DNA from: Escherichia coli
GTDB lineage: Bacteria; Pseudomonadota; Gammaproteobacteria; Enterobacterales; Enterobacteriaceae
DNA: 64,000 nt
Strand: one strand, 5' to 3'
Assembly: GCF_965641715.1 (NCBI RefSeq)
Contig: NZ_OZ282453.1
Below the pieces are notes generated by a model that did not search any database, was not told the origin of the DNA, and saw nothing but the letters and a program-made list of their open reading frames with translations. Shown here piece by piece: positions 1 through 15,201 of this stretch. Every line of letters begins with the position of its first letter. Position 1 is the stretch's first letter. The position numbers and the translations under genes were made by a program.

Positions 1-2288
1 CCACAACACGAAAATTTAAAACCGTTATCACCGATACGGGTGCAAAAAAATTAGCTCAGGCAGCCGCGCCAGATGGTAAGCCTGTCCGCCTGACTCATAT
101 GGCCGTGGGCGACGGTGGCGGCACGTTGCCCACACCAGACAGTAAGCAGACCCGTCTGGTGCATGAGGTGTGGCGACACACTGTTAATCGCGTCATCCTG
201 GACGCAACACATCAGAACCGCATTATTGCGGAGCTGGTTATTCCTCCAGAAACGGGCGGATTCTGGATCCGGGAAATTGGTGTGTTTGATGAGCACGGCG
301 ATTTAATCGCAGTAGGCAATACTGCCGAAAGTTACAAGCCAACCGTTGCCGAAGGGTCAGGACGTGCACAAACATTTCGCACCATTCTGACCGTATCCAG
401 CACTGCCACCGTGGCGCTTACCGTGGATAACACCATGGTAATGGCCACAGTGGATTACGTGGATGACAAACTGAAAGAGCATGAACACTCACGACGTCAC
501 CCGGACGCCTCGCTGACCGCAAAAGGCTTTGTTCAACTTAGCAGCGCCACTAACAGCACGTCTGAAACGCTTGCGGCAACGCCAAAGGCTGTTAAGGCGG
601 CATATGACCTGGCTAATGGCAAATACACCGCACAGGACGCTACCACTGCGCGAAAAGGGATAGTTCAGCTCAGTAGCGCCACCAACAGCACGTCTGAAAC
701 GCAGGCTGCAACGCCGAAAGCAGTAAAGGCCGCGTATGACCTTGCTAACGCAAAATATACCGCTCAGGACGCCACGACGGCACAAAAAGGGATAGTCCAG
801 CTCAGTAGTGCCACCAACAGCACGTCTGAAACACTGGCCGCGACATCGAAAGCGGTTAAGGCGGTAATGGATGAAACGAACAAGAAAGCGCCCTTAAACA
901 GTCCTGCGCTGACCGGAACGCCAACAACGCCAACTGCGCGACAGGGAACGAATAATACCCAAATCGCAAGCACGGCTTTCGTTATGGCTGCGATTGCCGC
1001 CCTTGTAGATTCGTCACCTGACGCACTGAATACGCTGAACGAGTTAGCGGCGGCGCTGGGAAACGACCCGAATTTTGCGACCACCATGACTAACGCGCTT
1101 GCGGGTAAGCAACCGAAAGATGCCACCCTGACGGCGCTGGCCGGGCTTGCTACTGCGGCAGACAGGTTTCCGTATTTTACGGGGAATGATGTCGCCAGCC
1201 TGGCAACCCTGACAAAAGTCGGGCGGGATATTCTTGCGAAATCGACCGTTGCTGCCGTTATCGAATACCTCGGTTTACAGGAAACGGTAAACAGGGCTGG
1301 TAACGCCGTGCAAAAAAATGGCGATACTTTGTCCGGTGGGCTTACTTTTGAAAATGACTCAATCCTTGCCTGGATTCGAAATACTGACTGGGCGAAGATT
1401 GGATTTAAAAATGATGCCGATGGTGACACTGATTCATACATGTGGTTTGAGACAGGCGACAACGGCAATGAATATTTCAAATGGAGAAGCAAACAAAGCA
1501 CCACAACAAAAGACCTGATGAATCTTAAATGGGATGCTTTGTATGTTCTTGTTAAAGCTCTTTTCAGCAGTGAAGTAAAAATATCGACAGTCAATGCACT
1601 GAGGATATTTAATTCATCTTTTGGTGCCATTTTTCGCCGTTCTGAAGAATGCCTGCATATCATCCCTACACGAGAGAATGAGGGGGAAAATGGTAATATA
1701 GGGCCACTACGTCCCTTTACGCTTAATCTCAGAACTGGCCGCATAACTATGGGGCATGGTCTGGATGTTACAGGAGATATAACAACTAACGCCTGGGTGT
1801 ATGCAAACAGGTTTGCTATTAATAGTGGCTCAACCTCATGGATTGATATGCGAAACCAGAATGTCATTTTTGGTAGAAACGCAGTATCAACAAGTTCTGC
1901 GCAGGCTTTGTTAAGACAAGACCATGCAGAACGCAAATTTTTTGTCGGTGGACTTGGTAACTACCAGTTTGGTTTTTACATGATTAATAACTCAAGGACA
2001 GCCAATGGCACCGATGGTCAGGCGTACATGGACAATAACGGTAACTGGCTTTGTGGCTCGCAAGTTATTCCTGGCAACTATGGCAATTTTGATTCCAGAT
2101 ATGTGAGAGATGTTCGCCTGGGTACGCGAGTTGTTCAATTGATGGCGCGTGGTGGTCGTTATGAAAAAGCCGGACACGCAATTACCGGATTAAGAATCAT
2201 TGGTGAAGTAGATGGCGATGATGAAGCCATCTTCAGGCCAATACAAAAATACATCAATGGCACATGGTATAACGTCGCACAGGTGTAA
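1..2288 (+). CDS. Phage tail fibre protein (P2 gpH-like), 5' end outside window
   Basis: Reading frame is open from base 3 to stop at 2286-2288. N-terminal MAVGDGGG and AKGFVQLSSATNSTSETLAATPKAVK motifs are typical of P2 H-type fibres. C-terminus ends in INGTWYN-like motif. Confidence 0.85.
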   Translation, partial: TTRKFKTVITDTGAKKLAQAAAPDGKPVRLTHMAVGDGGGTLPTPDSKQTRLVHEVWRHTVNRVILDATHQNRIIAELVIPPETGGFWIREIGVFDEHGDLIAVGNTAESYKPTVAEGSGRAQTFRTILTVSSTATVALTVDNTMVMATVDYVDDKLKEHEHSRRHPDASLTAKGFVQLSSATNSTSETLAATPKAVKAAYDLANGKYTAQDATTARKGIVQLSSATNSTSETQAATPKAVKAAYDLANAKYTAQDATTAQKGIVQLSSATNSTSETLAATSKAVKAVMDETNKKAPLNSPALTGTPTTPTARQGTNNTQIASTAFVMAAIAALVDSSPDALNTLNELAAALGNDPNFATTMTNALAGKQPKDATLTALAGLATAADRFPYFTGNDVASLATLTKVGRDILAKSTVAAVIEYLGLQETVNRAGNAVQKNGDTLSGGLTFENDSILAWIRNTDWAKIGFKNDADGDTDSYMWFETGDNGNEYFKWRSKQSTTTKDLMNLKWDALYVLVKALFSSEVKISTVNALRIFNSSFGAIFRRSEECLHIIPTRENEGENGNIGPLRPFTLNLRTGRITMGHGLDVTGDITTNAWVYANRFAINSGSTSWIDMRNQNVIFGRNAVSTSSAQALLRQDHAERKFFVGGLGNYQFGFYMINNSRTANGTDGQAYMDNNGNWLCGSQVIPGNYGNFDSRYVRDVRLGTRVVQLMARGGRYEKAGHAITGLRIIGEVDGDDEAIFRPIQKYINGTWYNVAQV
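522..870 (+). repeat. Tandem in-frame coding repeats in tail fibre (two full 132-138 nt units plus a partial third)
   Basis: Peptide (G/I)VQLSSATNSTSET(L/Q)AATPKAVKAAYDLAN(G/A)KYTAQDATTA(R/Q)KG occurs twice in full and a third time partially. Nucleotide copies differ at synonymous positions. Confidence 0.8.
1258..1283. other. gix/pix-like invertase crossover site (left), inside tail fibre gene
   Basis: ttatcgaatacctcggtttacaggaa is an imperfect inverted copy of 4323-4348 and resembles the Mu gix site as recalled. Confidence 0.7.
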
Positions 2289-2819
2289 ATGATGCAGCAT
2301 TTAAAAAATATTAAGTCTGGAAATCCTAAAACGAAAGAACAATATCAGCTAACAAAGAATTTTGATGTTATCTGGTTATGGTCCGAAGACGATAAAAACT
2401 GGTATGAGGAAGTGAAAAACTTTCAGCCAGACACAATAAAGATTGTTTACGATGCAAATAATATTATTGTCGCCATCACTAAAGATGCCTCCACGCTTAA
2501 CCCTGAAGGTTTTAGCGTCGTTGAGGTTCCTGATATTACAGCCAACCGCCGCGCTGATGATTCAGGAAAGTGGATGTTTAAGGATGGAGCTGTAGTTAAA
2601 CGGATTTATACGGCAGACGAACAGCAACAACAAGGCGAATCACAAAAGGCCGCATTGCTTTCCGAAGCTGAATCAGTCATCCAGCCGCTGGAACGCGCTG
2701 TCAGGCTGAATATGGCAACAGACGAGGAACGCACACGACTGGAAGCATGGGAACGCTACAGTGTTCTGGTCAGCCGTGTGGATACGGCAAATCCTGAATG
2801 GCCACAAAAGCCTGAATAA
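2289..2819 (+). CDS. Tail fibre assembly chaperone (gpG/Tfa-like), cassette A
   Basis: 176 aa ORF directly after fibre stop. N-terminus [23 protein letters not shown] and C-terminal region match the Tfa family; paralogous to 2848-3381. Confidence 0.85.
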
Positions 2820-2826
2820 AAATTAA

Positions 2827-2842
2827 GGCCCGCGATCGGGCC
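2827..2842. terminator. Short GC hairpin between convergent tfa genes
   Basis: ggcccg-cgat-cgggcc palindrome; T-rich flank on the minus-strand side only. Confidence 0.4.
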
Positions 2843-2847
2843 TTGTC

Positions 2848-3381
2848 TCATTCAGGTTGTTCGGGAAATGTTACTGGCAGGCTGGAGGTGTCTGTAGATT
2901 CGACTTTCTGCGCATAGAGCATCCACTCGGTTAATTTTTGTTTATTCTCGTCGGAAATGATGCCCAGCCGTAGCTGTGAGTCCCATAGCTGGGTTTTATC
3001 CCTAACGAGCTGTAGCAGGCTTTGCTTTTCATTTTCCGCCTGCTGCCTCTGCTCTTCCTCGGTATAAGTTCGCTTTACCACTACGCCATCTTTGAACATC
3101 CATTTACCAGAAATATCAGCCCGGCGATTTGCTGTAATATCAGGAACCTCAACGACGCTTGCGCCTTCTGGATTAATTGCTGAAACATCCTTTTCAATAC
3201 AAATAATAACGTTGTTGTGGTCATAGACCATTTTCAACGTATCAGGCTGAAAGTTCTTTTGTTCCTCATACCAGTTTTTCCCATCCTCTGTATAAAGCCA
3301 TTTGATGTTAAATTGTTTCGTTAGCTGGTATTGCTCTTTTGTTTTAGGGTTGCCAGCAGTAATATTTTTTAAGTGCATCAT
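2848..3381 (-). CDS. Tail fibre assembly chaperone, alternative cassette B
   Basis: 177 aa minus-strand paralogue of the 2289-2819 product ([22 protein letters not shown]...), convergent with it. Confidence 0.8.
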
Positions 3382-3383
3382 AA

Positions 3384-4322
3384 TTAAATACTCCCCGCGT
3401 TATACCACGTCCCATTAATGCAATACTGAATTGGCCTTGCCTGAGTTGTATCAATTAATTCATCACGGTTTCCGTTAACTGAACCCGTAACGACATAACC
3501 TGACCTGTCAGACCAGCCGGGACCATTCCATGTCTGAACAGATGACAGACCGCCAAGGCGAATACCTGTAATAAACCTTGAGTTACATTCTGCCTGCGTG
3601 TATGCACCAACATCTCCCGCAGAGGGTTTGCGGGTCGTGGTGTAAAACTCTGACCAGTTAGCCTCAAATCCATAACCATCACGCGCTGAACGATAAAAAA
3701 TACCGCCGTTCCTGTAATTCACGCGGAACTGTACAGCAGGGCAGCTCCCCGTATTCATATTGAAGTGGAGGATTAATGTCGATGCACCGCTGATATCTGC
3801 ATCATAAACACCGCTATTCCAGTTCCAGCCAACAGCTTTATCATTTGCAACCCTGCTTCCTGTTTGCCCTAAAGCAAATGCAGGCTGCTGGTTTTTCGTG
3901 TTGTAGTCTCTTCGCCAGCCAGGAGCATAAGCATCACCATGATTAATATAAGTGAATTGAGCGTTAGAGGTGCCGCCTCCGGTGGAAGTGCTTGGTGTTG
4001 TTACACGGATGGTCATGGCACCTTTATTACCCATAACCTCAATAACGCAACCTGCAAGATGAATAGTTCCACAGCCAGTATCGGTAATAATTTTATTATT
4101 GCCGTATGACCATGAACATTTGCACATCCAGTATGGGTGATTGAATGCCCCTTGAGAATCCAGCCATTCAATCAATTGTGCCGTTGTCCAGTTCCCTGCC
4201 CCTGTACTAATAGCACTGTGAAAAGCGCGACATGCACCAATATTTTTTGTGAAGGTATCTTTTCCTGGAATATCTGCGCCGTTCTGGTTTTTCTGTAATG
4301 CGCCAGAAGCCTGATTTACCGT
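3384..4322 (-). CDS. Promoterless alternative tail-fibre C-terminal cassette, expressed only after inversion
   Basis: Minus-strand frame is open from the crossover site at 4323 to a stop at 3384. It begins ...[12 protein letters not shown], matching the [11 protein letters not shown] junction of the plus-strand fibre, and ends [11 protein letters not shown]. It has no start codon of its own upstream. Confidence 0.75.
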
Positions 4323-4348
4323 TTCTTGTAAACCGAGGTTTTAGATAA
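4323..4348. other. gix/pix-like invertase crossover site (right)
   Basis: ttcttgtaaaccgaggttttagataa, inverted partner of 1258-1283, immediately upstream of the invertase gene. Confidence 0.7.
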
Positions 4349-4402
4349 TGGCCGTTTCTGACCTGCATGGCATGATTTACGCTTTTGGACGGGAGATTCA
4401 GC

Positions 4403-4990
4403 GTGCTGATTGGCTATGTAAGGGTATCAACAAATGACCAGAATACAGACCTGCAACGAAACGCTCTTGTTTGTGCAGGATGTGAACAAATATTTGAAGA
4501 TAAATTAAGCGGGACAAAGACAGACCGACCGGGATTAAAACGCGCTTTAAAGCGTCTTCAAAAAGGTGACACGCTGGTTGTCTGGAAACTGGATCGCCTC
4601 GGGCGAAGCATGAAACATCTGATTTCTCTCGTCGGGGAACTACGGGAGCGAGGGATTAATTTTCGCAGTCTGACCGACAGCATAGATACATCTTCTCCAA
4701 TGGGGCGTTTTTTCTTCCACGTGATGGGTGCCCTGGCTGAAATGGAACGTGAATTAATTGTTGAACGTACACTGGCCGGACTGGCAGCAGCGCGCGCACG
4801 GGGGCGCACAGGCGGACGTCGCCCGAAGCTGACAAAAGAACAGCATGAGCAAATAGCAAGGCTGATTAAAAACGGTCACGACAGAAAACAACTGGCAATA
4901 ATTTACGGCATTGGTACATCGACGATTTATCGTTACCACCCCGCAGGAGAATCAAGCGGAGCAATAGAGAAGAGTCAGAAAACAAAATAA
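4403..4990 (+). CDS. Serine DNA invertase (Pin/Gin/Hin/Cin family)
   Basis: N-terminus (V)LIGYVRVSTNDQNTDLQRNAL with catalytic serine context and a C-terminal helix-turn-helix region. Probable GTG start at 4403; the ORF track starts at a TTG at 4385. Confidence 0.9.
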   Translation: MLIGYVRVSTNDQNTDLQRNALVCAGCEQIFEDKLSGTKTDRPGLKRALKRLQKGDTLVVWKLDRLGRSMKHLISLVGELRERGINFRSLTDSIDTSSPMGRFFFHVMGALAEMERELIVERTLAGLAAARARGRTGGRRPKLTKEQHEQIARLIKNGHDRKQLAIIYGIGTSTIYRYHPAGESSGAIEKSQKTK

Positions 4991-5018
4991 CCGCTAATCT
5001 GACCATTAGCGGTTTTTG
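4990..5018. terminator. Bidirectional intrinsic terminator between invertase and tail gene U
   Basis: accgctaat-ctgacc-attagcggt hairpin followed by TTTTT; the reverse strand is also T-rich. Confidence 0.65.
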
Positions 5019-5025
5019 TGTTAAA

Positions 5026-5520
5026 TCAGAACAGCCCTTTAACTGAACTGGCCGCGCTGTTAAGAGATGATGTCACCTTATCTTTGAAGCCGGACAGCAT
5101 ATCGCTGAACGATGAGGATTGCAGGCGCTCCCGCAAATCCTCATCACAGCGTTCAAGGGTCAGTGAAAATTCTATCTTTTTCGCCTTACCGTAGCGATCA
5201 AACTCGGAACGGGTCGTATTCGTTCCGGTCAGGACATACATGCCGTAAATCTGCCCGACACCATCAATCAGAGGCCAGGGGCGTCCTGTATATGCCTGCG
5301 TGGTCAGCAACGAAAGCGACACTTCGCCACCTGTAATTTCAGGATAAAGCACACCAGAAAGAACGATGCGATCATCGCCTGCCCCGATATACTGCCAGCT
5401 TGCTGAACGGTTAACGCGTTCATTTTTCACATGCCGCCAGCTTTTGTTTTGCTGTAACTGCTGATGCGGCAACGTGCGCAGCTCAAAAACAAACATGCCG
5501 TAGATCATCATCATGGCCAT
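5026..5520 (-). CDS. Phage tail protein (P2 gpU-like)
   Basis: 164 aa ORF immediately downstream of the tape-measure gene on the minus strand; size and position match gpU. Exact start among the N-terminal Met codons is uncertain. Confidence 0.7.
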   Translation of the reverse strand: MAMMMIYGMFVFELRTLPHQQLQQNKSWRHVKNERVNRSASWQYIGAGDDRIVLSGVLYPEITGGEVSLSLLTTQAYTGRPWPLIDGVGQIYGMYVLTGTNTTRSEFDRYGKAKKIEFSLTLERCDEDLRERLQSSSFSDMLSGFKDKVTSSLNSAASSVKGLF

Positions 5521-5526
5521 GACTCC

Positions 5527-8334
5527 TCAATCTTTATCGTAAAAACTGCCACGCCCGGCACGGGCGCGCCGTTCCATTTCTGCCCTGACCATTTCACCGA
5601 CCAGTTTCGCCAGTTCGCGGGGATTCTGCGTAACAACGTTATGCAGATGAACATGAATTTCACCACCAAATCCGGAGGCAACAGGCTCCCGGTTACGGGA
5701 AGTTACAGGAACTGATGCCACTGGAGATCGTATGGCCTCCGCCACCGGGCGGGAGCTGGCCGCAACAACAGGGACCAGCGCCGGAGGCAGCGGAGCCGGG
5801 ACCACGGGGGTGATATTAATTGCGGGGGCAGGCTTACTGACCTGCGCAATCTTCCGCTCCTGCCACTCCCCACGAACAGCAAGTGCGCGGGGCAGGTTCT
5901 TAAAGACAATATCGCCGGGGCCAATGCGTTTTTTCGTCTCATCAACCAGCTTACCTGTGTTATCAGCAATTTTGCTGAGTCTGCGTAGCGTCCCGGTATT
6001 GCTGTCTGTGAGCGGTTTATTGTCTTTGGGGTTATCACCTCCGGTGCCATTGCCATTTTCCACAGGCTTCGGCGGATTGATTTTCGCCAGGTCCCCCTGA
6101 AGCAAGGCAACCTTGTCCTGAAGAATGGCCGCACGCTGTGCGTCTTCGATTTTCTTTCTCGCCCTTTCCGCTTCATCCGGAAGCACACCGAGTTTTTCAA
6201 GTATCCACGCCAGCGTATCCAGCAGCATTTTTGCAGGCGTCAGAACAAGCTGTAGCGCGCCACCAAGAACGTTACCGAATATCTCGCCAGCACTGGTACA
6301 TTTATCCAGCGTTTCCTTGCTGGACTCCATCGGTGACAGCAGCGATTTAAACCAGTTAAAGAGCTGAATAATCCCATCGCGCACGACATCAAAAACAGGA
6401 CCAAACCGTTCAAAGGTTTCGCGCAACGGAGCCAGCCGTTCCATAATTCCACTGAACACCCCGGCATAAAACGCCTTGATGGGTTCCCAGTATTTCCAGA
6501 TGAGAACCGCCGCAGCCACAAACGCGGCAACAATCAATCCGACCGGACTGAACAGCGCCCCGATAGCGCCACCCAGCAACGAGATGGAACCTGTTACCAT
6601 TCCCCATAGTGCTGGCAGCACCCTGACGACATTCATTGATCCGGTCAGGAGAGAAAAACCAAGACGTAACGTGGCCAGTTTCCCGTGAAGCACGCCAATA
6701 ACCAGCGACAACGAGCCAATCGTTGCAGTCATTGCCAGCAACGCACCGCCTGCTATCAGTAGCTGGCGCGTCAGTGCCGGATGGGCCTGCGCCAGCGCCG
6801 TCACCCTTGATACCACCCGCGTGAGCCACTGCGTGACAGAACGCAGCGGGCCGTCAATCAGATCTGCAATGCGGATGCGCAACCCTTCCCATGCACTGCC
6901 GAGTGATTTCAGATCGCCGTCAAGGTTGTTGGCCATAACCTTTGCTGTGCGTTCAGCCTCACCGCGCGCGCCTTCAAGTTCTTTTCTCAGTTTAGGTAAG
7001 GAACCGTCACCCGCTGCATCAACGAGCGCCATAAACGATGTGAAAGCCTCTTCTCCGGCAATGTCCTTAAAGAACGATACCCGGTCAACTTCCCCGTATT
7101 TGCGGGTGGCTTTATAAAGGTCGGCCAGCACATCCTCCATCGGGCGCATTTTGCCGTTCGCGTCAGAGACTGCCACACCAAGCTCTTTCAGCGCCTCTGC
7201 TGCCGCCTTTGGCGGTGATGCAAGACGAGCCAGGCTGGCACGCATTGCCGTCCCGGCATCACTTCCCCTGATACCCATATTCGCCAGCACGCCCGCCATC
7301 GCTGCGGCCTGCTCCAGCGATATTCCCAGCTTGCCCGCCACCGGACCTGCATATTTCATGGTTTCGCCCAGTGCGCGAAGGTCAGTGTTGGTACGGGTAA
7401 ACGCTGCGGTGAGCGTGTCACCGACCCGGTCCATCTGGTCAGCAGAAAGGCCGAACTGCGTCAGGATATTTGAGCCAATATCTGCCGTCTCGCCGAGATC
7501 CATACCGCCAGCCGTTGCCATGCTCAGCACTCCGGGGAGCGCAGCCTGAATGGCCTGCGGTGTGAAGCCAGCCATTGCAAGAAATGCCTGCCCACTGGCG
7601 GCATCGCCTGCGGTGAACTGCGTTTCAGAGCCAAGTTTTAACGCCTGCTCACGCAGCGCCTTAAACTGCGGGCTGTTCTGGTCGATTCGCGTCAGCGCCT
7701 GAACGCGGGACATCTCTTTGCCGAACCCGATCGCGGGCTGCAAAAAACGCCCGGCAGCATAGCCGCCCGCCGCTGCCGCACCAATTGCCAGCGCACCACC
7801 TGTTTTCAGTTTTCCCGCGGTTTCCTGCGCGCGCGAATACCGCTCACGCGCCCGCGTTACACGCGCAAGCGCCTGCCGTTCGCGTTCAAGCTGGTTGTTG
7901 TACTGTTCGGTGCGTCTGATGGCCTGCTGGATGGTGTTATCGCTGCCTGTCAGGGAAATGCCGTGGCGTTTCAGCTCTCCGCCAAGTTCCCGCATTTTCT
8001 GAATTTCCCGTGTGCGCGATTCATTCAGGCGTTCAAGCCGGGTGCTTAACTGCTGCATCAGCTTTTGTTGTTTTTCGCTGAGCACTGTACCCGTGCGTTG
8101 TAACTGATTAAGAGCGTTAAGCTGGCGTCGTGCTTTCAATATGCCAGCATCCGCTTTACTGACAGCGTCACGGGCGCGCTCAAATGAACGCGCCTGACGC
8201 TCGAGATTTTTGATCGCCCCCTGCGTTCGCTGGATGGAGTCACCAAACTGCCCCATCAGGCGGCGGGCGTTTTCGGCAGGCCGGGTCAGCCTGTCAACGG
8301 CGCTGAAAGCGACCCGGATATCAAGAGTCTTCAT
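5527..8334 (-). CDS. Tail tape-measure protein (P2 gpT-like)
   Basis: About 935 aa, Ala/Gly-rich with predicted coiled-coil and membrane-like segments, downstream of the E/E' pair. ATG start at 8334 preferred over the GTG at 8370. Confidence 0.85.
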   Translation of the reverse strand: MKTLDIRVAFSAVDRLTRPAENARRLMGQFGDSIQRTQGAIKNLERQARSFERARDAVSKADAGILKARRQLNALNQLQRTGTVLSEKQQKLMQQLSTRLERLNESRTREIQKMRELGGELKRHGISLTGSDNTIQQAIRRTEQYNNQLERERQALARVTRARERYSRAQETAGKLKTGGALAIGAAAAGGYAAGRFLQPAIGFGKEMSRVQALTRIDQNSPQFKALREQALKLGSETQFTAGDAASGQAFLAMAGFTPQAIQAALPGVLSMATAGGMDLGETADIGSNILTQFGLSADQMDRVGDTLTAAFTRTNTDLRALGETMKYAGPVAGKLGISLEQAAAMAGVLANMGIRGSDAGTAMRASLARLASPPKAAAEALKELGVAVSDANGKMRPMEDVLADLYKATRKYGEVDRVSFFKDIAGEEAFTSFMALVDAAGDGSLPKLRKELEGARGEAERTAKVMANNLDGDLKSLGSAWEGLRIRIADLIDGPLRSVTQWLTRVVSRVTALAQAHPALTRQLLIAGGALLAMTATIGSLSLVIGVLHGKLATLRLGFSLLTGSMNVVRVLPALWGMVTGSISLLGGAIGALFSPVGLIVAAFVAAAVLIWKYWEPIKAFYAGVFSGIMERLAPLRETFERFGPVFDVVRDGIIQLFNWFKSLLSPMESSKETLDKCTSAGEIFGNVLGGALQLVLTPAKMLLDTLAWILEKLGVLPDEAERARKKIEDAQRAAILQDKVALLQGDLAKINPPKPVENGNGTGGDNPKDNKPLTDSNTGTLRRLSKIADNTGKLVDETKKRIGPGDIVFKNLPRALAVRGEWQERKIAQVSKPAPAINITPVVPAPLPPALVPVVAASSRPVAEAIRSPVASVPVTSRNREPVASGFGGEIHVHLHNVVTQNPRELAKLVGEMVRAEMERRARAGRGSFYDKD

Positions 8335-8538
8335 TGTCTGTATTCCCGCTGCGAAGTGCCGCCCGCTCACGCCAGCTAACCACTTCGCCGGGAGTCATCA
8401 TGAAGATTTCGGCGGGCGACCAGTTAAAAATGGCGGCAATATCCGCCACAAAGTCTTCTATGTGCTCAAAGCACACAACCGTGATCAGGCTTCCGTCGCC
8501 TGTTCGTTCTTCCCGCCAGAGTCCGCACCGCTCAAAAA
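8321..8538 (-). CDS. E' extension frame of tail chaperone, reached by programmed -1 frameshift from E
   Basis: A 78-codon frame overlaps the 3' end of E and ends at the tape-measure start. It is entered at the minus-strand TTTTTTG heptamer. Confidence 0.6.
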
Positions 8539-8850
8539 ATTTACGGCAACCACACATAACTGAATAAAGTCACGGGATGCCATTTTTTTGATCGTCACTT
8601 CATCCAGTCGCGGTGATGTCACGCGTGACAGCAGCGTAAACATGGATTCCGCTTTCAGATTCAGCACATCAGACAGCGACAAATCTCGCAGAGATCCAGC
8701 CTGCTCAATAGCCCCGGTGATCTCCACATACGTGATTTTTTCGCCGCCTCGCTCAATTGGTTGGGTAAGTTTTACGCCACGCTCACTGGTTTCTTTCACA
8801 GTGTCAGTAACTACCGTGTTTTCGGTATCGATGTTTTTCGTCTCTTTCAT
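8485..8850 (-). CDS. Tail assembly chaperone (P2 gpE-like)
   Basis: Small ORF between the tail tube and tape-measure genes, with an overlapping -1 frame. True start may be internal. Confidence 0.7.
   Translation of the reverse strand: MKETKNIDTENTVVTDTVKETSERGVKLTQPIERGGEKITYVEITGAIEQAGSLRDLSLSDVLNLKAESMFTLLSRVTSPRLDEVTIKKMASRDFIQLCVVAVNFLSGADSGGKNEQATEA
8532..8538 (-). other. Candidate -1 frameshift slippery heptamer TTTTTTG (E/E')
   Basis: Plus strand reads caaaaaa at 8532-8538; on the minus strand the E frame reads gta aat ttt ttg agc. Same arrangement as the P2 E/E' recoding site. Confidence 0.6.
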
Positions 8851-8904
8851 CAGGAAACTCCTTTCAGTCAGAGGCGACGCACTGCGCCGCCTGCATATTA
8901 CTTA

Positions 8905-9417
8905 TCAGCCAAGCCCAAGCGCGGAACGGATACGGTCAGGCACAATGTCCTTGCCGTCCTTCCGGTAGATGAAGTTCAGCAGGTCAATCTCCCACAACGG
9001 GCGATCGTTAACACTCAGCTTGTAGTAGGTGTTTTTAATGGCGTAAGTGTGTGATGTGGCTTCGCCCTGTTTGGCTTCCCCCATATCAATTTCCGTCACA
9101 CGTCCGCGCATTTCGACTTCATACAGGTCGCTTTCTGCATCGGTGTAGTATTCACCCGCAAAACGCAGCAGCGTGCCGTCAATCGTGCCGCCATACTTAA
9201 GGAACAGCTCACGAACTGCGCCCCCCATGACAAAGCTCGCATCAAGCGCGGAGTCGTCCAGACCGAGATCAATACTTACCGCACCCATCATGCCGCCACC
9301 CCGGTAGCTGTCGGTTTTGCGCGTCAGCTTAGGCAGAGTGACGGACGTCACCTTACCCACTTCGTTTTCACCATCCACAAACAGCGTAAAAAAGCGAAGA
9401 TGTTTTGGCACAGCCAT
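8905..9417 (-). CDS. Tail tube protein (P2 gpFII-like)
   Basis: 170 aa, start overlaps the sheath stop (shared A at 9417); position and size match FII. Confidence 0.85.
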   Translation of the reverse strand: MAVPKHLRFFTLFVDGENEVGKVTSVTLPKLTRKTDSYRGGGMMGAVSIDLGLDDSALDASFVMGGAVRELFLKYGGTIDGTLLRFAGEYYTDAESDLYEVEMRGRVTEIDMGEAKQGEATSHTYAIKNTYYKLSVNDRPLWEIDLLNFIYRKDGKDIVPDRIRSALGLG

Positions 9418-10601
9418 CAGGCACCTCCCAGCACCGCAAATGCGGGTTCAAAGTATTCATCAGTAAACGTCTGGTAAAGCTCCATGTCTTCCAGTGGCGG
9501 AACGGGCGTATATTTGTAGCGAATACGCACGCGCCCCTGACGTAAATCCGTGGTGCTGTTATCCACCACGTCATACCAGCACTCCGCGCCAATCAGTTTC
9601 CCGGCAGTAACCAGTGAATCCAGTTTTGCCCTGATGGCACTGATAACATCCTTCACGTTCGCAGGCGTCAGTGGACTGTCGATGGTTTCAAACTGCGCTT
9701 CCGCAATTGAATCAGCCAGCACCTGTGCGGTTCGGGTATACACCTCAAAGATGTAGGCGTTCGTTTCCGGTGTGCGGTTGCCCCAGAAGCGGAACCCGTT
9801 GCGACGAATAATGGTCGTGATTTCTTTGTTGTTGAGGCTGTTGGCATCGCTGTCTTCGGCCTGCAACGACCAGAACACATGCTTCGACATCCCCAGCACA
9901 TTTTTAACCGGAACGTTGGACAGTGATTTGTGCCACCCCTGCTCATGGTCAATGTACGCACGAAGGCCGCACGCATAGGCAGGTGCGGGGAACGTTTCGT
10001 TTTTGCCACTTTTCGGGTTGTAGGCGATGAAGTCCGGCCATAAGAGCATCACCTCACGTTCGTTGAATTTCTGGCGGTAGGTAATCGCCTCAGCCATCGT
10101 GTTACAGCCGTGACATGAGGCATACACAAACGCGCGCAGTTTACCCGCAATCACGCACAGGGATTTTGTTACAGCCTCCGTGTCCAGCTCCGGCGCGGCC
10201 AGAATACGCGGACGGTATCCGATGCTTTCATCCTGCTCTGCAACAAGCAGCGCATACATCCCCGTATAGCTGCCGTCAGATTCAGAACCACCGATAACCA
10301 GTTGATCCTGCGTCTTTCCGTCTTCTTCTTTGTGTTCAGCCACGCGAACGACGATCACCTTTGTGCTCACCTGGTCTGCGATGGCCTTAAGCGCACGATA
10401 AAGCGTCCCCGTTGTCCCGCATTTTCCCAGCACGTCATTGACGCGGGTCAGCAGTGTGGGCTTGTTCAGCGGGAACAGCTTCGCGTCCGCATCATCCGCC
10501 GTTGCCACGATACCGATAACGCTGGAATCAACATCGTTAATCGCTGTTACCAGGTCGGTATTTTCCGTAACACGGGCACCATGAAAACGAGTTTCACTCA
10601 T
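9417..10601 (-). CDS. Contractile tail sheath protein (P2 gpFI-like)
   Basis: 394 aa, MSETRFHGARVTENTDLVTAINDVD...; sheath family by size and position upstream of the tube gene. Confidence 0.85.
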   Translation of the reverse strand: MSETRFHGARVTENTDLVTAINDVDSSVIGIVATADDADAKLFPLNKPTLLTRVNDVLGKCGTTGTLYRALKAIADQVSTKVIVVRVAEHKEEDGKTQDQLVIGGSESDGSYTGMYALLVAEQDESIGYRPRILAAPELDTEAVTKSLCVIAGKLRAFVYASCHGCNTMAEAITYRQKFNEREVMLLWPDFIAYNPKSGKNETFPAPAYACGLRAYIDHEQGWHKSLSNVPVKNVLGMSKHVFWSLQAEDSDANSLNNKEITTIIRRNGFRFWGNRTPETNAYIFEVYTRTAQVLADSIAEAQFETIDSPLTPANVKDVISAIRAKLDSLVTAGKLIGAECWYDVVDNSTTDLRQGRVRIRYKYTPVPPLEDMELYQTFTDEYFEPAFAVLGGA

Positions 10602-10758
10602 AGCTTCAGCCCCTTGTATCCGTTAAATGATTCGGCAACAATCATCACCCACCACGCGCGTAATCTCACCCCTGCGCCGTTCTCCCGCCACGGCGACAAC
10701 AAAAAGCAGTAACCCCCTCCGCACGCACATGCGACCATGCCGCACAGGGAGGGAGCAG

Positions 10759-11868
10759 ATGACCGACACCACCATGCAATTGCTCAGTCAGGGCACAGAC
10801 CCCGTGAAAATGCCGGATTTTGATATTCTCGCGGAGGGTAAAACGCTGTCAGGCGTGGCAGAGCGCCTGATGAGCCTGTCAGTGACCGACAACCGGGGAT
10901 TTGAAGCGGACCAGCTCACCATCACGCTGGATGATGCGGATGGTCAGTTGCAGCTACCGCCACGGGGCGCGCGCCTGACGGTTCTCATTGGCTGGAAAGG
11001 AGAACCGCTGACAGAAAAAGGCACTTACATTGTTGATGAAATCGCTCACGAAGGACCGCCGGACAGGCTGACTGTTTCAGCCAGAAGCGCAGATTTTCGG
11101 GATGAATTTAACGTTAAACGTGAGGTGTCCTGGCATGATGTGACCGTTGAGCGTGTGGTATCCGCCATCGCTCATCGGTACGGTCTGAAACCGCAAATCA
11201 GCGAAATGCTGATGGATATCGAAATCGACCACGCCGACCAGACCGAAGAAAGCGACATGTCCTTTCTTACGCGCATGGCGGAAATGCTGGGCGCAATCAC
11301 CACGGTAAAAAGCGGTAATCTGTTATTCATTATGCCAGGCGGTGGCGTGAACGCACAGGGCCAGCCGTTGCCCTCGTTCGCCATCACGCGCAGCAGTGGC
11401 GATCGCCATCAGTTCCGCATTGCTGACCGCGAAGCGTATACGGGGGTACGCGCTTACTGGCTTGATCTTAATTACGGGAAAAAGAAAAAAGTCAGCGTGA
11501 AACGCCGCAAACCGCCAAAACCCAAAAAGGAGAAAAGCAGCAGCCGTGAAGGTGATTATATGGAAGGTGCGGAAGGCAATGTGTTTGTGTTACGCAAGAC
11601 TTATCAGAACGAGCAGGCAGCAAGACGCGCAGCGGCGGCAAAGTGGCAGCAACTACAACGCGGAGCCGCATCATTCTCCATCACGCTGACACGTGGACGA
11701 GCAGAACTCTACCCCGAAATGCATGGCACGGTAACAGGATTTAAAAGCGAGATTGATAATCAGGACTGGATTATTGCGAAAGCCGAGCACACCATTGATA
11801 ACAGTGGCTTTACCACGCAGCTTGAGCTTGAAGCAAAAATCCCGGAATGGATAGCAGAAACAGAGTGA
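10759..11868 (+). CDS. Phage late gene D protein (P2 gpD-like tail protein)
   Basis: 369 aa from the ATG preceded by GGGAGGGAG. Lysine-rich central linker and overall layout match gpD. Divergent from the sheath gene. Confidence 0.8.
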   Translation: MTDTTMQLLSQGTDPVKMPDFDILAEGKTLSGVAERLMSLSVTDNRGFEADQLTITLDDADGQLQLPPRGARLTVLIGWKGEPLTEKGTYIVDEIAHEGPPDRLTVSARSADFRDEFNVKREVSWHDVTVERVVSAIAHRYGLKPQISEMLMDIEIDHADQTEESDMSFLTRMAEMLGAITTVKSGNLLFIMPGGGVNAQGQPLPSFAITRSSGDRHQFRIADREAYTGVRAYWLDLNYGKKKKVSVKRRKPPKPKKEKSSSREGDYMEGAEGNVFVLRKTYQNEQAARRAAAAKWQQLQRGAASFSITLTRGRAELYPEMHGTVTGFKSEIDNQDWIIAKAEHTIDNSGFTTQLELEAKIPEWIAETE

Positions 11869-11910
11869 GCAACTTAGAATAGCGGCAGCACCACGTTAAG
11901 GGAGGTCGCT

Positions 11911-12171
11911 ATGTTCCGTTGTCCGCTTTGTGGCGCATCTGCCCGTATCCGCACCAGTCGTCCGGAAAATGATTCAAACACCGTGCGGCAAAAGTATTAC
12001 CAGTGTAACAATCTGGAATGCGGCGTATGCTTCTCAACACTGGAAGCTTTCCATAAATTCACATCGAAACACGCCTCCGGCGTTCACTCTTCAGAAGGTA
12101 TCCCGTGGCATGAGCTGCCAGCTTCACACAGGGGAAACAATCAGATGAGTTTGCCTTTATCTCAGAATTAA
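11911..12171 (+). CDS. ogr: Ogr/Delta-family zinc-finger late transcription activator
   Basis: 86 aa, CPLC...X...CNNLEC four-cysteine pattern, N-terminus MFRCPLCG like P2 Ogr, directly after D. Confidence 0.8.
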   Translation: MFRCPLCGASARIRTSRPENDSNTVRQKYYQCNNLECGVCFSTLEAFHKFTSKHASGVHSSEGIPWHELPASHRGNNQMSLPLSQN

Positions 12172-12259
12172 CAGGCAGAATTGCCGGAGTAACAAAAAAG
12201 CGATAGATTACGCGCGGGTGCCTTTCGGCTGATGGTCGGAGGGAATACCCGAAGGCCAG

Positions 12260-12496
12260 ATGTGGAAAGGCCCCGGAAAACATTTCTGTTTAACCGAGGC
12301 CCTAACACTTCTTACCTTCGCAAGTAGAAGGTTAGCGCCTCTCCTCTCAGGAGACAAGCGTTATGACGCAAATTCCGTTAAAAACCCTGTTACTTTGCAT
12401 AACTGCGGTAGCGATAATCTGGATCCTCCACACATCACCGTGCGAGTTACGATTCAGGTTTGCTGGCACGGAAATTGCGGCATTCTTACTATGTAA
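12260..12496 (+). CDS. mok-like overlapping reading frame of the hok locus
   Basis: 78-codon frame starts 103 nt upstream of hok and overlaps it out of frame, as mok does in hok/sok loci; GAAGG precedes the ATG. Confidence 0.4.
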   Translation: MWKGPGKHFCLTEALTLLTFASRRLAPLLSGDKRYDANSVKNPVTLHNCGSDNLDPPHITVRVTIQVCWHGNCGILTM

Positions 12497-12503
12497 TAAG
12501 TAA
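12363..12503 (+). CDS. Hok/Gef-family type I toxin (small membrane peptide)
   Basis: 46 aa MTQIPLKTLLLCITAVAIIWILHTSPCELRFRFAGTEIAAFLLCNK: hydrophobic helix followed by C-E-L-R-F-R and E-I-A-A-F motifs. AGGAG lies 9 nt upstream. Below the 60-aa cutoff of the ORF track. Confidence 0.75.
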   Translation: MTQIPLKTLLLCITAVAIIWILHTSPCELRFRFAGTEIAAFLLCNK

Positions 12504-12590
12504 GATAACCGCGACGGGGGAGTAATCCCCCGTCAATCGGTTGCTAAGGTTGGTCGAAACGGCATCCTATCTCACAGACATGAACAACAA

Positions 12591-12622
12591 ACCCGCAGCG
12601 TAAAAACTGCGGGTTTTCTTTT
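12591..12622 (+). terminator. Intrinsic terminator downstream of hok
   Basis: acccgcag-cgtaaaaa-ctgcgggt hairpin followed by tttctttttg. Confidence 0.6.
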
Positions 12623-12670
12623 TGCTACCCTCACAAATGAGGGCACCATACATAAGCAATAGGCATAACA

Positions 12671-12710
12671 GATCGATGCAATAAATCCGATCGATAAAAA
12701 CGATCGATTT
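12671..12710. promoter_or_regulatory. Cluster of three GATCGAT (Dam-site) repeats upstream of com
   Basis: GATCGAT at 12671, 12690 and 12703, 40-80 bp upstream of the com start. Resembles the three-GATC regulatory region of the Mu mom operon. Confidence 0.4.
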
Positions 12711-12752
12711 GTTATCATATCGGCAGCAGTAACCACACAAGAGGTGCCGCAA

Positions 12753-12950
12753 ATGACGCAAAATGTACGATGCAAAAATTGCAACAAACTACTTGCCCGC
12801 GCCTCATTTCACTACATTGAAATAAAATGTCCGCGCTGCAAAACACTTAACCAGATAACGAGAGCCATCGAGCACCCCACACACATGAGGAGTTATGACC
12901 GTGGGGATCGCAATCCAGCACCAACCAGCACATACGCCAGAACACACTAA
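12753..12950 (+). CDS. com: Com-like zinc-finger translational regulator (Mu Com family)
   Basis: 65 aa, MTQNVRCKNCNKLLARASFHYIEIKCPRCK..., matching the Mu Com CKNCNKLL...IEI(R/K)CPRCK pattern. AAGAGG RBS; 3' end overlaps the methyltransferase start. Confidence 0.7.
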   Translation: MTQNVRCKNCNKLLARASFHYIEIKCPRCKTLNQITRAIEHPTHMRSYDRGDRNPAPTSTYARTH

Positions 12951-13701
12951 GGTTTATCAGACTGACAATGTCACGCTCTGTTGTGGGAATGCACTGGAAA
13001 TATTGCCGCTGATTGAGCCAGAAAGCATTGATGCCTTAATCACTGACCCGCCTTACAGTTCGGGTGCGACACACAAGGCCGGACGCACCAATCAGGGCAG
13101 CCATGCAAAATATCTGAACGGCGAGAACCTTCACCGCTTTGATGGGTTCGCGGGTGAAAACATGGACGCCCGTTCGTGGGCTTACTGGACACAATTATGG
13201 ATGGCACAGGCACACCGCGCAGTCAGGCCAGGCGGTTATGCCATGGTATTTACTGACTGGCGACAACTACCAGCTTTAACCGATGCGTTTCAGGCCAGTG
13301 GCTTTACATGGCGCGGCATCATTGCGTGGAACAAGGGGAGGGGGTCACGAACACCACATACCGGGTATTTCCGGCATCAGTGCGAATACATCGTCTGGGG
13401 CAGCAAAGGCCATTTAGATAAATCGCCTTCGGGGCCGTTCGACGGCTGCATGACGTACCCGGTTATCCCGTCAAAGAAAATGCACCCGACCGGAAAACCA
13501 GAAGAACTAATGGCGGAACTGGTCAGGACTGTGAATAGTGGCGGAACAGTCCTTGATCCTTTTATGGGGTCAGGGACAACGGGTGTGGCTGCACTGAAAG
13601 CAGGGCGAAAATTTATTGGTATAGAAACCAGTGATCATTATTTTGAGGTAGCAGCGCAGCGGCTTCGGGGGACTATTACCACAACCATTTCGGCTACATA
13701 A
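12895..13701 (+). CDS. DNA methyltransferase, beta-class (N6-adenine or N4-cytosine), no restriction partner in window
   Basis: 268 aa with motif order DPPY before FMGSGTT. No restriction endonuclease nearby. Start overlaps the end of com by 56 nt. Confidence 0.85.
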   Translation: MTVGIAIQHQPAHTPEHTKVYQTDNVTLCCGNALEILPLIEPESIDALITDPPYSSGATHKAGRTNQGSHAKYLNGENLHRFDGFAGENMDARSWAYWTQLWMAQAHRAVRPGGYAMVFTDWRQLPALTDAFQASGFTWRGIIAWNKGRGSRTPHTGYFRHQCEYIVWGSKGHLDKSPSGPFDGCMTYPVIPSKKMHPTGKPEELMAELVRTVNSGGTVLDPFMGSGTTGVAALKAGRKFIGIETSDHYFEVAAQRLRGTITTTISAT

Positions 13702-13851: not shown

Positions 13852-14247
<396 letters not shown>

Positions 14248-14416
14248 TCAAAATGTGTGATGGAAATCTCATAATTTTGTCACTTTTTGTCAACGAATCT
14301 TTTTTGTGAGAAATCGCAGGAAGAGGTGTTTTTTTACTTGAGGAATATCTCAAAGCGAGCCATATTTGATGAGATCGATAGTGACTAAATCGCTTCAGTT
14401 TCACAACTGACAGAAT

Positions 14417-14447
14417 AAAAAAACGGCAGCTCAAGGGCTGCCGTTTT
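14417..14447 (-). terminator. bamD intrinsic terminator
   Basis: aacggcagc-tcaagg-gctgccgtt hairpin with T-run on the minus strand. Confidence 0.6.
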
Positions 14448-14463
14448 GTGTTTCAGGTTTCTG

Positions 14464-15201
14464 TTATGTATTGCTGCTGTTTGCGGCGATGATTTTCGCT
14501 ACTTTTTCAGCTTGCGCATTCATCTGCATCTGACGGTATGCATTTTCCATCAGCGGCAGCGCATCACGCGTAGCCTGGGTATCCGGGTAGTCGCGCAACA
14601 TGCCTTCTACGCGGTTAACGACGGCAACCCATGCGCCACGTTCTGTATAGTACTCGGCCACGGAGTATTCATATTTCGCCAGACGATCTTTCAGGAATAC
14701 CAGACGTTTGGTGGCATCGGTGGTGTACTGACTGTTTGGATAGCCGCGCACCAGTTTGGAAAAGTCACTAAACGCAGCTCGTGCATGTTGAGGATCGCGA
14801 TCGCTACGGTCAACGCCAAAGAACCCTTGCAGCGCACTGTCATCCAGCGCCATATTGGTCAGGCCACGCATGTACATGACATAATCGATATTCGGATGGG
14901 TCGGGTTAAGGCGAATAAAACGATCGATGGCAGCCTGCGCTAACGGCAAATCGGCGTTTTTATAGTAGGCGTAGATGAGATCCAGCTGCACCTGCTGCGA
15001 ATACGGACCAAACGGATAGCGATTATCTAACGCTTCCAGTTGCGTTATTGCCTGTCTCCAGTTACCGTCCTGCAGCTTTTGTTGTGCAGTCGCGTAAATT
15101 TCATTTGGCGGATTATCAGGTACTTCTTCCTTTGACCCCGAGCAACCCGCCAAAAACAGGCTTAGTGTGGCGGCTGCCACCAGATATTTCATGCGCGTCA
15201 T
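14464..15201 (-). CDS. bamD: Outer-membrane protein assembly lipoprotein BamD (YfiO)
   Basis: 245 aa, lipoprotein signal [11 protein letters not shown]-like body; synteny. Confidence 0.95.

What the first reader, a model, noticed from the sequence alone, without database searches (positions are those of the whole stretch)
5026..10758. Tail block FI-FII-E/E'-T-U is inverted relative to canonical P2 order, leaving gene D divergent
Canonical P2 order is H-G-(Z/fun)-FI-FII-E-T-U-D-ogr, all on one strand. Here H, tfa, D and ogr are on the plus strand while sheath, tube, E/E', tape measure and U are on the minus strand. This equals a single inversion of about 5.6 kb, with breakpoints in the invertase–U gap (4991-5025, now a shared terminator) and the FI–D gap (10602-10758). 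D has its own strong RBS but is divergent from FI. I found no TGT-N12-ACA Ogr-type dyad in the 157-bp FI–D gap and no gix-like sequence at either breakpoint, so the inversion does not look like a product of the resident invertase. This could be a lineage-specific arrangement, a decay step in a cryptic prophage, or an assembly artefact.
Basis: partly seen in the sequence, partly recalled or inferred. Interest (0 to 1): 0.5.

Follow-up and report, generated by a model that had tools for sequence, protein, structure and literature searches.

The report
Normal tail-gene layout of P88-like prophages
The "inverted" tail-gene block is real, but it is the normal, inherited gene order of a whole branch of P2-like phages, including working phages such as P88, so it is not damage, an assembly error or a recent flip.

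Summary
U, T, E/E', FII and FI (5026-10601) lie on the minus strand. H, tfa, the invertase, D and ogr lie on the plus strand.

The interpretation options "decay" and "assembly artefact" are refuted, and "lineage-specific arrangement" is right.
- The 8-kb region is colinear at 97% identity with Escherichia phage P88, which is inducible and forms plaques. It is 95.5% identical to Citrobacter phiSM. It occurs in 1,106 of 5,426 complete E. coli genomes.
- The same divergent FI/D layout is seen in five Peduoviridae genera plus Serratia KSP20, and in 160 of 160 IMG/VR loci.
- FI and D trees place all inverted phages in one clade with the same internal topology. This points to one old inversion, inherited vertically.
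- Seven more distant Peduoviridae genera are colinear like P2.
- The resident invertase is not involved. gix sites occur only at 1258-1283 and 4323-4348.

The exact pattern also misses all three annotated P2 sites. The gap carries TCT-N12-ACA (10681-10698), conserved across the clade, at the P2-like distance from FI and flanked symmetrically by -10-like hexamers. I infer one Ogr site driving FI and D divergently, as at P2 pP/pO. This is ordinary and of low interest.

The parts
1258..1283 (+). Left gix site of the invertible tail-fibre (G-like) segment. Context only, not part of the inverted tail block.
   Evidence: Inverted repeat I2; sequence; only two matches in the window with up to 3 mismatches, 0 expected by chance.
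4323..4348 (-). Right gix site, just upstream of the invertase gene.
4385..4990 (+). Gin/Hin-type serine DNA invertase. It sits in the variable cargo slot between the tail-fibre genes and U.
   Evidence: PHROG 125 DNA invertase, E 9e-97. Pfam Resolvase plus HTH_7. 92-96% DNA identity to Mu/D108 gin. In other E. coli genomes and sister genera the slot holds other genes or no extra gene.
4989..5014 (.). Bidirectional intrinsic-terminator-like hairpin shared by the convergent invertase and U transcripts.
   Evidence: A 10-bp stem with T runs on both strands; sequence; inverted repeat I8.
5026..5520 (-). gpU-like tail protein.
   Evidence: Pfam Phage_P2_GpU, 1.5e-38; PHROG 76.
5527..8334 (-). gpT tape measure protein. 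The ATG at 8334 gives the same length as the P88 gene.
   Evidence: PHROG 28; N-terminal translation; P88 annotation.
8321..8557 (-). E' part (-1 frame) of the E/E' tail chaperone pair. The slippery TTTTTTG lies at 8539-8533.
   Evidence: Pfam Phage_P2_GpE, 2.4e-12; heptamer; the P2 record annotates a -1 frameshift in E.
8485..8850 (-). gpE-like tail assembly chaperone.
   Evidence: PHROG 103.
8905..9417 (-). gpFII tail tube.
   Evidence: PHROG 55, full-length match. This family's label 'head closure' is also put on P2 FII itself. PGAP calls the E. coli homologue 'phage major tail tube protein'.
9417..10601 (-). gpFI tail sheath.
   Evidence: PHROG 23 tail sheath, 2.5e-127.
10602..10758 (.). 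157-bp divergent FI-D control region.
   Evidence: Sequence. Alignment with four sister lineages shows conserved blocks in an otherwise diverged gap.
10681..10698 (.). Ogr-type activator dyad TCT-N12-ACA, in the context GTTCT-N12-ACAACAAAAA. Its centre is 10689.5, which is 88.5 bp from the FI ATG and 69.5 bp from the D ATG.
   Evidence: The same GTTCT-N12-ACAACAAAA motif lies in P88's terminase/scaffold divergent gap. The half-sites are invariant while the spacer varies in 79 of 80 close relatives. The site is present in 47 of 57 distinct gaps of more distant clade members, plus 5 with the mirror variant.
10641..10646 (-). Predicted -10 hexamer (GATGAT) of the FI-operon late promoter. Predicted transcription start about 10634 (-). 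Inferred.
   Evidence: An nAnnAT hexamer lies at offset 52-57 from the site in five of six lineages, shifted by one base in 3LV2017. P2 mapped starts are at offset 64-65.
10730..10738 (+). Predicted extended -10 (TG-n-GACCAT) of a D-ogr late promoter. Predicted transcription start about 10745 (+). Inferred.
   Evidence: An nAnnAT-type hexamer lies at offset 52-57 in five of six lineages (phiT5282H has GATCCT instead), preceded by TGn in five (SEN4 has GG).
10759..11868 (+). gpD (baseplate hub/late control D), with its own GGGAGGGAG ribosome-binding site.
   Evidence: Pfam Phage_GPD; sequence. All six inverted lineages start D with ATG. Four of six colinear ones start with GTG overlapping U.
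11911..12171 (+). Ogr/Delta-type zinc-finger late activator.
   Evidence: Pfam Ogr_Delta, 5e-14, above cutoff. PGAP annotates the homologue as Ogr/Delta-like.

Best explanation
The window holds the right end of an intact P88-like (Xuanwuvirus, Peduoviridae) prophage in an E. coli chromosome. The FI-FII-E/E'-T-U block on the opposite strand from D-ogr is the fixed, ancestral gene order of a whole enterobacterial branch of P2-like phages. It arose once by an inversion whose ends lay between the tail-fibre/cargo slot and the F-operon promoter, and at the U/D boundary.

It most likely works as follows. This step is inferred, not shown. The Ogr-dependent F promoter travelled with the block. Its dyad-symmetric activator site now sits in the middle of the 157-bp FI-D gap. 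It serves two back-to-back late promoters: one reading leftward into FI...U and ending at the bidirectional hairpin at 4989-5014, and one reading rightward into D and ogr. This is the geometry that the P2 record annotates for its divergent pP/pO pair. D, which is translationally coupled to U in colinear phages, has acquired its own ATG and a strong ribosome-binding site.
For: Shown:
- The region is colinear in a single megablast piece, with 100% coverage and 97.2% identity, with phage P88. Thirteen phage records cover at least 80% of it. Annotated strands in P88 and phiSM are identical to the window.
- P88 is mitomycin-inducible, forms plaques, has been imaged by EM, and was sequenced from virion DNA (PMC5285337). 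phiSM is released spontaneously and lysogenises K-12 (PMC6456863).
- 1,106 of 5,426 complete E. coli genomes carry at least 80% of the 8 kb colinearly.
- All 80 loci with a near-identical D and all 80 from the wider clade have FI-/D+.
- The same layout occurs in Novemvirus, Reginaelenavirus, Reipivirus, Senquatrovirus and Serratia KSP20. P2, Gegevirus, Elveevirus, Arsenicumvirus, ENT90, Citexvirus and Baylorvirus are colinear.
- FI and D neighbour-joining trees each make the inverted phages one clade with the same internal topology.

Promoter evidence:
- Each of seven inverted genomes has exactly one T[G/C]T-N12-ACA in the gap. It lies 81.5-88.5 bp from the FI ATG, compared with 82.5 in P2, 79.5 in Gegevirus and 85.5 in Cartapus. 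It lies 68.5-76.5 bp from the D ATG.
- It is a perfect TGT-N12-ACA in 3LV2017, KSP20 and SEN4.
- -10-like hexamers lie at offset 52-57 on both sides.
- The P2 record annotates one activator site 55.5 bp from both divergent starts of pP and pO.
- An Ogr/Delta gene is present.
Against: - No transcription start, Ogr binding or Ogr dependence has been measured for any phage of this clade. The promoter model rests on sequence conservation and on analogy with P2.
- A one-mismatch dyad alone is expected about 0.5 times per 157 bp by chance, so its weight comes only from conservation and position.
- One sub-group of 5 distinct gaps (L160-like) shows no convincing site.
- The predicted D leader is short, at about 13 nt.
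- The direction of the event (inversion from a P2-like ancestor rather than the reverse) is inferred from the wide spread of the colinear order in a sample of seven other genera, not from a rooted whole-family phylogeny.
Confidence: 0.85

Rival explanations
1. Assembly artefact: the 5.6-kb block was mis-oriented during assembly of this genome.
For: None found. The only point in its favour is that the layout differs from P2.
Against: The same junctions occur in 1,106 complete E. coli genomes, in 13 phage records including P88 sequenced from virion DNA, and in 160 of 160 IMG/VR loci. There are no repeats at the block's ends that could mislead an assembler.
Confidence: 0.01
2. Decay step in a cryptic prophage: a rearrangement that broke the tail operon.
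For: D is separated from U, to which it is translationally coupled in colinear phages.
Against: All tail ORFs are full length and match P88 gene for gene. Phages with this layout make infectious particles: P88, phiSM and SEN4/5. The layout has persisted while FI and D diverged to 56-77% identity. D has its own start codon, ribosome-binding site and conserved upstream elements.
Confidence: 0.02
3. A programmed or recent inversion made by the resident Gin-like invertase, so that the block switches orientation.
For: An invertase gene abuts the block. One IMG/VR locus (L054) shows a different rearrangement between two invertase copies.
Against: gix sites exist only at 1258-1283 and 4323-4348, and none lies at 4991-5025 or 10602-10758. 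No inverted repeat brackets the block. No locus has the opposite orientation. Sister genera have the inverted block with no invertase. Cartapus and ENT90 have an invertase beside a colinear block.
Confidence: 0.01
4. Module replacement: the sheath-to-U block was acquired from another phage lineage and happened to insert in the opposite orientation, rather than inverting in place.
For: P2-like phages are mosaic. The neighbouring fibre and invertase region is Mu-like.
Against: The FI tree (inside the block) and the D tree (outside it) have the same internal topology and similar divergence for the six inverted lineages. This is what vertical co-inheritance predicts. The Ogr site keeps the same distance from FI as in colinear phages.
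Confidence: 0.05
5. The layout is as described, but D-ogr is not driven by the shared Ogr dyad. It instead uses an ordinary sigma-70 or other promoter, or only the internal ogr promoter.
For: There are no transcription data. The dyad has one mismatch and the predicted D leader is short. A weak sigma-70-like match lies inside the 3' end of D (11731-11760) and could serve ogr.
Against: The TGn-plus-hexamer element on the D side sits at the same offset from the dyad as the FI-side hexamer, and it is conserved in lineages with only about 66-72% DNA identity. P2 itself uses one site for two divergent late promoters. The consensus scan finds no sigma-70-type promoter in the gap.
Confidence: 0.2

Closest known systems
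Escherichia phage P88 (Xuanwuvirus P88, NC_026014) and Citrobacter phage phiSM
   Same: Same genes, order, strands and junctions. P88 shows 97.2% DNA identity over 8 kb and 99.4% across the FI-D junction, and phiSM shows 95.5% and 98.4%. The P88 and window FI-D gaps differ at one base.
   Different: Only small sequence differences. The tail-fibre variable parts differ, and the window's copy is an integrated prophage next to raiA/bamD.
Bacteriophage P2 F operon (FI-FII-E-E'-T-U-D) and ogr
   Same: Same gene set, the same E/E' TTTTTTG frameshift site, an Ogr-type activator, and an activator dyad about 82 bp upstream of FI.
   Different: In P2 all of these genes are on one strand and D is the last gene of the F operon, abutting U. 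Here FI-U is inverted and D-ogr form a separate divergent unit. Protein identity to P2 is only 44.5% for FI and 51% for D.
P2 divergent late promoters pP/pO with one shared activator site
   Same: One dyad lies midway between two back-to-back late units. The P2 starts are 55.5 bp either side of the site centre. The window has -10-like hexamers at equal offsets on both sides of its dyad.
   Different: In P2 this geometry serves the packaging and capsid genes and has been mapped experimentally. Here it is proposed for the FI and D genes, and it is prediction only.
Mu G segment / Gin invertible tail-fibre system
   Same: The neighbouring 1258-4348 segment has gix sites, paired fibre and chaperone genes, and a gin gene 92-96% identical to Mu/D108.
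   Different: That system flips the fibre segment only. The 5.6-kb tail block has no gix sites and is not seen in the other orientation.

Membership tests
P2-like (Peduoviridae) contractile-tail gene set | Homologues of FI sheath, FII tube, E/E' chaperones, T tape measure, U, and D | tested here: met
   PHROG and Pfam matches for every gene.
P2-like (Peduoviridae) contractile-tail gene set | Programmed -1 frameshift site in E giving E+E' | tested here: met
   TTTTTTG at 8539-8533 (-), with the GpE domain in the -1 frame. The frameshift itself was not assayed.
P2-like (Peduoviridae) contractile-tail gene set | Canonical colinear order FI-FII-E-T-U-D-ogr on one strand | tested here: not met
   FI to U are on the minus strand, and D and ogr on the plus strand. 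This is a feature of P2 and many genera, not of the family as ICTV defines it, because five classified genera share the inverted order.
Genus Xuanwuvirus (P88-like) | High nucleotide identity to the type phage over the genome | tested here: inconclusive
   97.2% identity over 100% of the 8 kb tested. Only the right-hand third or so of the prophage lies in the window, so whole-genome identity cannot be computed.
Genus Xuanwuvirus (P88-like) | Same gene order and strands as P88 in the tail, D and ogr region | tested here: met
   Searches compared.
Ogr/Delta-dependent P2-type late promoter | Partial dyad TGT-N12-ACA upstream of the promoter | tested here: met
   TCT-N12-ACA at 10681-10698 has one mismatch, like P2 pF and pP/pO. 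It is a perfect dyad at the homologous place in 3LV2017, KSP20 and SEN4.
Ogr/Delta-dependent P2-type late promoter | Dyad centred about 55 bp upstream of the transcription start | not testable with these tools
   No transcript data are available. The -10-like hexamers at offset 52-57 predict starts at offset about 64, as mapped in P2.
Ogr/Delta-dependent P2-type late promoter | A cognate Ogr/Delta zinc-finger activator is encoded | tested here: met
   11911-12171, Pfam Ogr_Delta at 52.4 bits against a cutoff of 26.3.
Ogr/Delta-dependent P2-type late promoter | Transcription depends on the activator | not testable with these tools
   Needs a reporter or in-vitro transcription assay.
Gin/Hin-type invertible DNA segment (as an explanation for the 5.6-kb block) | Inverted recombination (gix/hix) sites at both ends of the segment | tested here: not met
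   Only two gix matches in 64 kb, both at the fibre segment. No inverted repeat pairs 4991-5025 with 10602-10758.
Gin/Hin-type invertible DNA segment (as an explanation for the 5.6-kb block) | Both orientations present among close relatives | tested here: not met
   None of 160 IMG/VR loci and none of the phage records inspected has the other orientation within the clade.

The most novel reading that the evidence does not exclude
The inversion turned a one-way Ogr-dependent promoter into a two-way one. Because the activator site is a dyad, placing D on its far side at the right distance created a new late promoter for D-ogr. That uncoupled D from U and put ogr under direct positive feedback from a promoter of its own. 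This would be a natural example of a symmetric activator site being co-opted by a rearrangement. The site appears not to have been described in the papers I could search.
Probability: 0.6. Interest if true: 0.3.

Novelty: already known. Interest (0 to 1): 0.13.

Why it matters
It matters mainly for housekeeping.
- Annotators and prophage-integrity callers should not treat this layout as a broken P2. It marks a large clade: P88-like phages alone are present in about a fifth of complete E. coli genomes, and the clade includes relatives in Klebsiella, Enterobacter, Salmonella, Serratia and Citrobacter.
- The divergent FI/D junction is a simple diagnostic for that clade.
- The predicted shared Ogr site gives a cheap, testable case of a bidirectional late promoter outside the P2 pP/pO pair.
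- The check also shows that exact-pattern searches for TGT-N12-ACA miss real sites.

Tried and rejected
I rejected it as a test because it also misses the three annotated P2 sites.
- A consensus sigma-70 scan found nothing in the gap. This is uninformative for activator-dependent promoters.
- The first IMG/VR scan with the window's D protein returned only near-identical copies. That was useful for counting orientation but not for footprinting, so I repeated it with a D alignment led by SEN4.
- Full-text searches and in-paper searches of nine papers found no explicit mention of the inversion. These covered the terms Xuanwuvirus, P88, KSP20 and SEN4, and recent P2 diversity and hotspot papers. 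The genome maps in those papers could not be read.
- The extrapolated distances to D are unreliable, because the D N-termini vary. I used only annotated or manually checked start codons.
- I considered fetching more type genomes (186, HP1, Fels-2). I stopped at seven colinear genera, which I judged sufficient.

Full report
**What is there**

- Plus strand: tail fibre H (99-2288), tfa (2289-2819), a Gin-type invertase (4385-4990), D (10759-11868) and an Ogr/Delta zinc-finger gene (11911-12171).
- Minus strand: U (5026-5520), tape measure T (5527-8334), E (8485-8850), tube FII (8905-9417) and sheath FI (9417-10601).
- The E' part lies in the -1 frame, with a TTTTTTG slippery site at 8539-8533.

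The two gaps are exactly as stated. The invertase-U gap holds a hairpin (4989-5014) that scores as a terminator in both directions. The annotated P2 record has the whole set FI...D, ogr on the same strand as V-G. Relative to P2, then, this is one inversion of about 5.6 kb.

**Is it an artefact, decay, or a lineage trait?**

The 8-kb stretch 4300-12300 aligns in a single colinear piece to Escherichia phage P88, at 97.2% identity and 100% coverage. It aligns at 95.5% to Citrobacter phage phiSM. Thirteen phage records cover at least 80% of it. Their annotated strands match the window gene for gene.

P88 was induced with mitomycin C, forms plaques, was imaged by EM and was sequenced from virion DNA (PMC5285337). 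phiSM is released spontaneously and lysogenises K-12 (PMC6456863).

The same colinear 8 kb is present in 1,106 of 5,426 complete E. coli genomes. All 80 IMG/VR loci with a near-identical D have FI on the opposite strand from D. All window ORFs are full length.

**How far does the arrangement reach?**

A 1.1-kb query spanning the FI-D junction finds junction-spanning matches at 66-72% identity in four further phages:
- Enterobacter phage phiT5282H (Novemvirus)
- Klebsiella phage 3LV2017 (Reginaelenavirus)
- Klebsiella phage ST16-OXA48phi5.4 (Reipivirus)
- Serratia phage KSP20

Salmonella phage SEN4 (Senquatrovirus), which is a particle-forming phage (PMC5261728), has the same layout. A second IMG/VR scan with a D alignment led by SEN4 gave 80 further loci at 63-100% identity, and all have FI-/D+.

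By contrast, seven other genera are colinear: P2, Gegevirus, Elveevirus Cartapus, Arsenicumvirus, ENT90, Citexvirus Dobby and Baylorvirus. Their D proteins are at most 52% identical to the window's.

Neighbour-joining trees of FI (inside the block) and D (outside it) each place the six inverted lineages in one clade with the same internal topology. The simplest reading is one old inversion inherited vertically. It is neither repeated flipping nor a module swap.

**Role of the invertase**

There is none.
- The only gix sites in 64 kb are at 1258-1283 and 4323-4348, bounding the Mu-like invertible fibre segment.
- No inverted repeat brackets 5026-10601.
- Sister genera have the inverted block without any invertase.
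- Cartapus and ENT90 have an invertase next to a colinear block.

**How the two units are probably expressed**

That exact pattern also misses all three activator sites annotated in P2, which have one mismatch or an 11-bp spacer.

Allowing T[G/C]T, each of seven inverted genomes has exactly one site in its FI-D gap. It lies 81.5-88.5 bp from the FI ATG, the same distance as in colinear P2 (82.5), Gegevirus (79.5) and Cartapus (85.5). It lies 68.5-76.5 bp from the D ATG.

In the window the site is GTTCT-N12-ACAACAAAAA, with the core at 10681-10698. The same GTTCT-N12-ACAACAAAA motif lies in P88's terminase/scaffold divergent gap. In 3LV2017, KSP20 and SEN4 the site is a perfect TGT-N12-ACA.
- Among close relatives the half-sites are invariant while the spacer varies.
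- Among 57 distinct gaps of the wider clade, 47 have a perfect site and 5 have the mirror-image one-mismatch form.
- A further 5 gaps (L160-like) are unclear.

Registered on the site, -10-like nAnnAT hexamers sit at offset 52-57 on both strands. On the D side the hexamer is preceded by TGn. P2's mapped starts lie at offset 64-65. P2's pP and pO share one site 55.5 bp from each start.

From this I infer a single Ogr site driving both directions, with these predicted elements:

| Promoter | Direction | -10 element | Predicted start |
|---|---|---|---|
| P_F | leftward, minus strand | 10646-10641 | about 10634 |
| P_D | rightward, plus strand | 10733-10738 | about 10745 |

The FI...U transcript would end at the 4989-5014 hairpin, and D-ogr would form a separate late unit.

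In colinear phages D overlaps the end of U and often starts with GTG. In all six inverted lineages D starts with ATG behind a strong Shine-Dalgarno sequence. None of this has been tested by transcript mapping.

**Comparison and novelty**

The window is an ordinary member of the P88-like group. The arrangement is already present in annotated reference genomes of five ICTV genera, although I found no text that comments on it. The only modest addition here is the conserved, apparently bidirectional Ogr site. It mirrors a known P2 solution.

**Verdict**

The decay and artefact readings are refuted. The lineage-specific reading is supported. Interest is low.

Noticed in passing
window 1258-4990: A Mu-type invertible tail-fibre segment. 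It has gix sites at 1258-1283 and 4323-4348, two fibre C-termini and two chaperones in opposite orientation, and a gin gene whose first ~460-480 bp are 92-96% identical to Mu/D108 gin. This is a Mu-like module inside a P2-like prophage.
   Followed up: partly
window 4385-4990; L091 493-1038; L087 1195-3098; L089 591-1415: The slot between the tail-fibre chaperone and U is a variable cargo site. It holds an invertase here, an LbetaH-domain gene in E. coli JNEC-KY175, a DUF3800 gene in strain T28R, DUF262 plus a hypothetical gene in ST16-OXA48phi5.4, a macro-domain gene in SEN4, and no extra gene in 3LV2017 or phiT5282H. It looks like the counterpart of the P2 Z/fun hotspot, kept on the other side of the inverted block.
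   Followed up: partly
window about 12363-13701, and 13852-15201: Homology to an annotated E. coli genome suggests that the prophage's right end carries hok/gef, a Com-family regulator (about 12753-12950) and a DNA methyltransferase (12895-13701). After that come chromosomal raiA (13852-14193, -) and bamD (14464-15201, -), so the attachment junction lies between 13701 and 13852. The exact TGT-N12-ACA match at 12828 falls inside the com coding sequence and is not a promoter element.
   Followed up: partly
L054 (IMGVR_UViG_2654587728_000014) 1-6612: One of 80 close relatives has two invertase genes in inverted orientation, with the 3' part of T plus U flipped between them, splitting the tape measure gene. 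This could be a rearrangement mediated by the invertase genes or by homologous recombination, or a mis-assembly. It is unrelated to the clade-wide inversion.
   Followed up: no
L085 5397-6623; L087 8049-9347; L088 3783-5213; L002 10110-12561: Several public annotations near the junction look wrong. The FI starts of phiT5282H and ST16-OXA48phi5.4 and the D start of KSP20 are set too far upstream and eat into the control region. In the phiSM record the product names are shifted by one gene: the sheath is called 'late control gene D protein' and D is called 'ogr'.
   Followed up: partly
L003 (P88) 14216-14237: P88's terminase/scaffold divergent gap carries GTTCT-N12-ACAACAAAAG, the same variant half-site (TCT instead of TGT) as the FI-D gap. 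This suggests that Xuanwuvirus Ogr prefers or tolerates a C at that position.
   Followed up: partly
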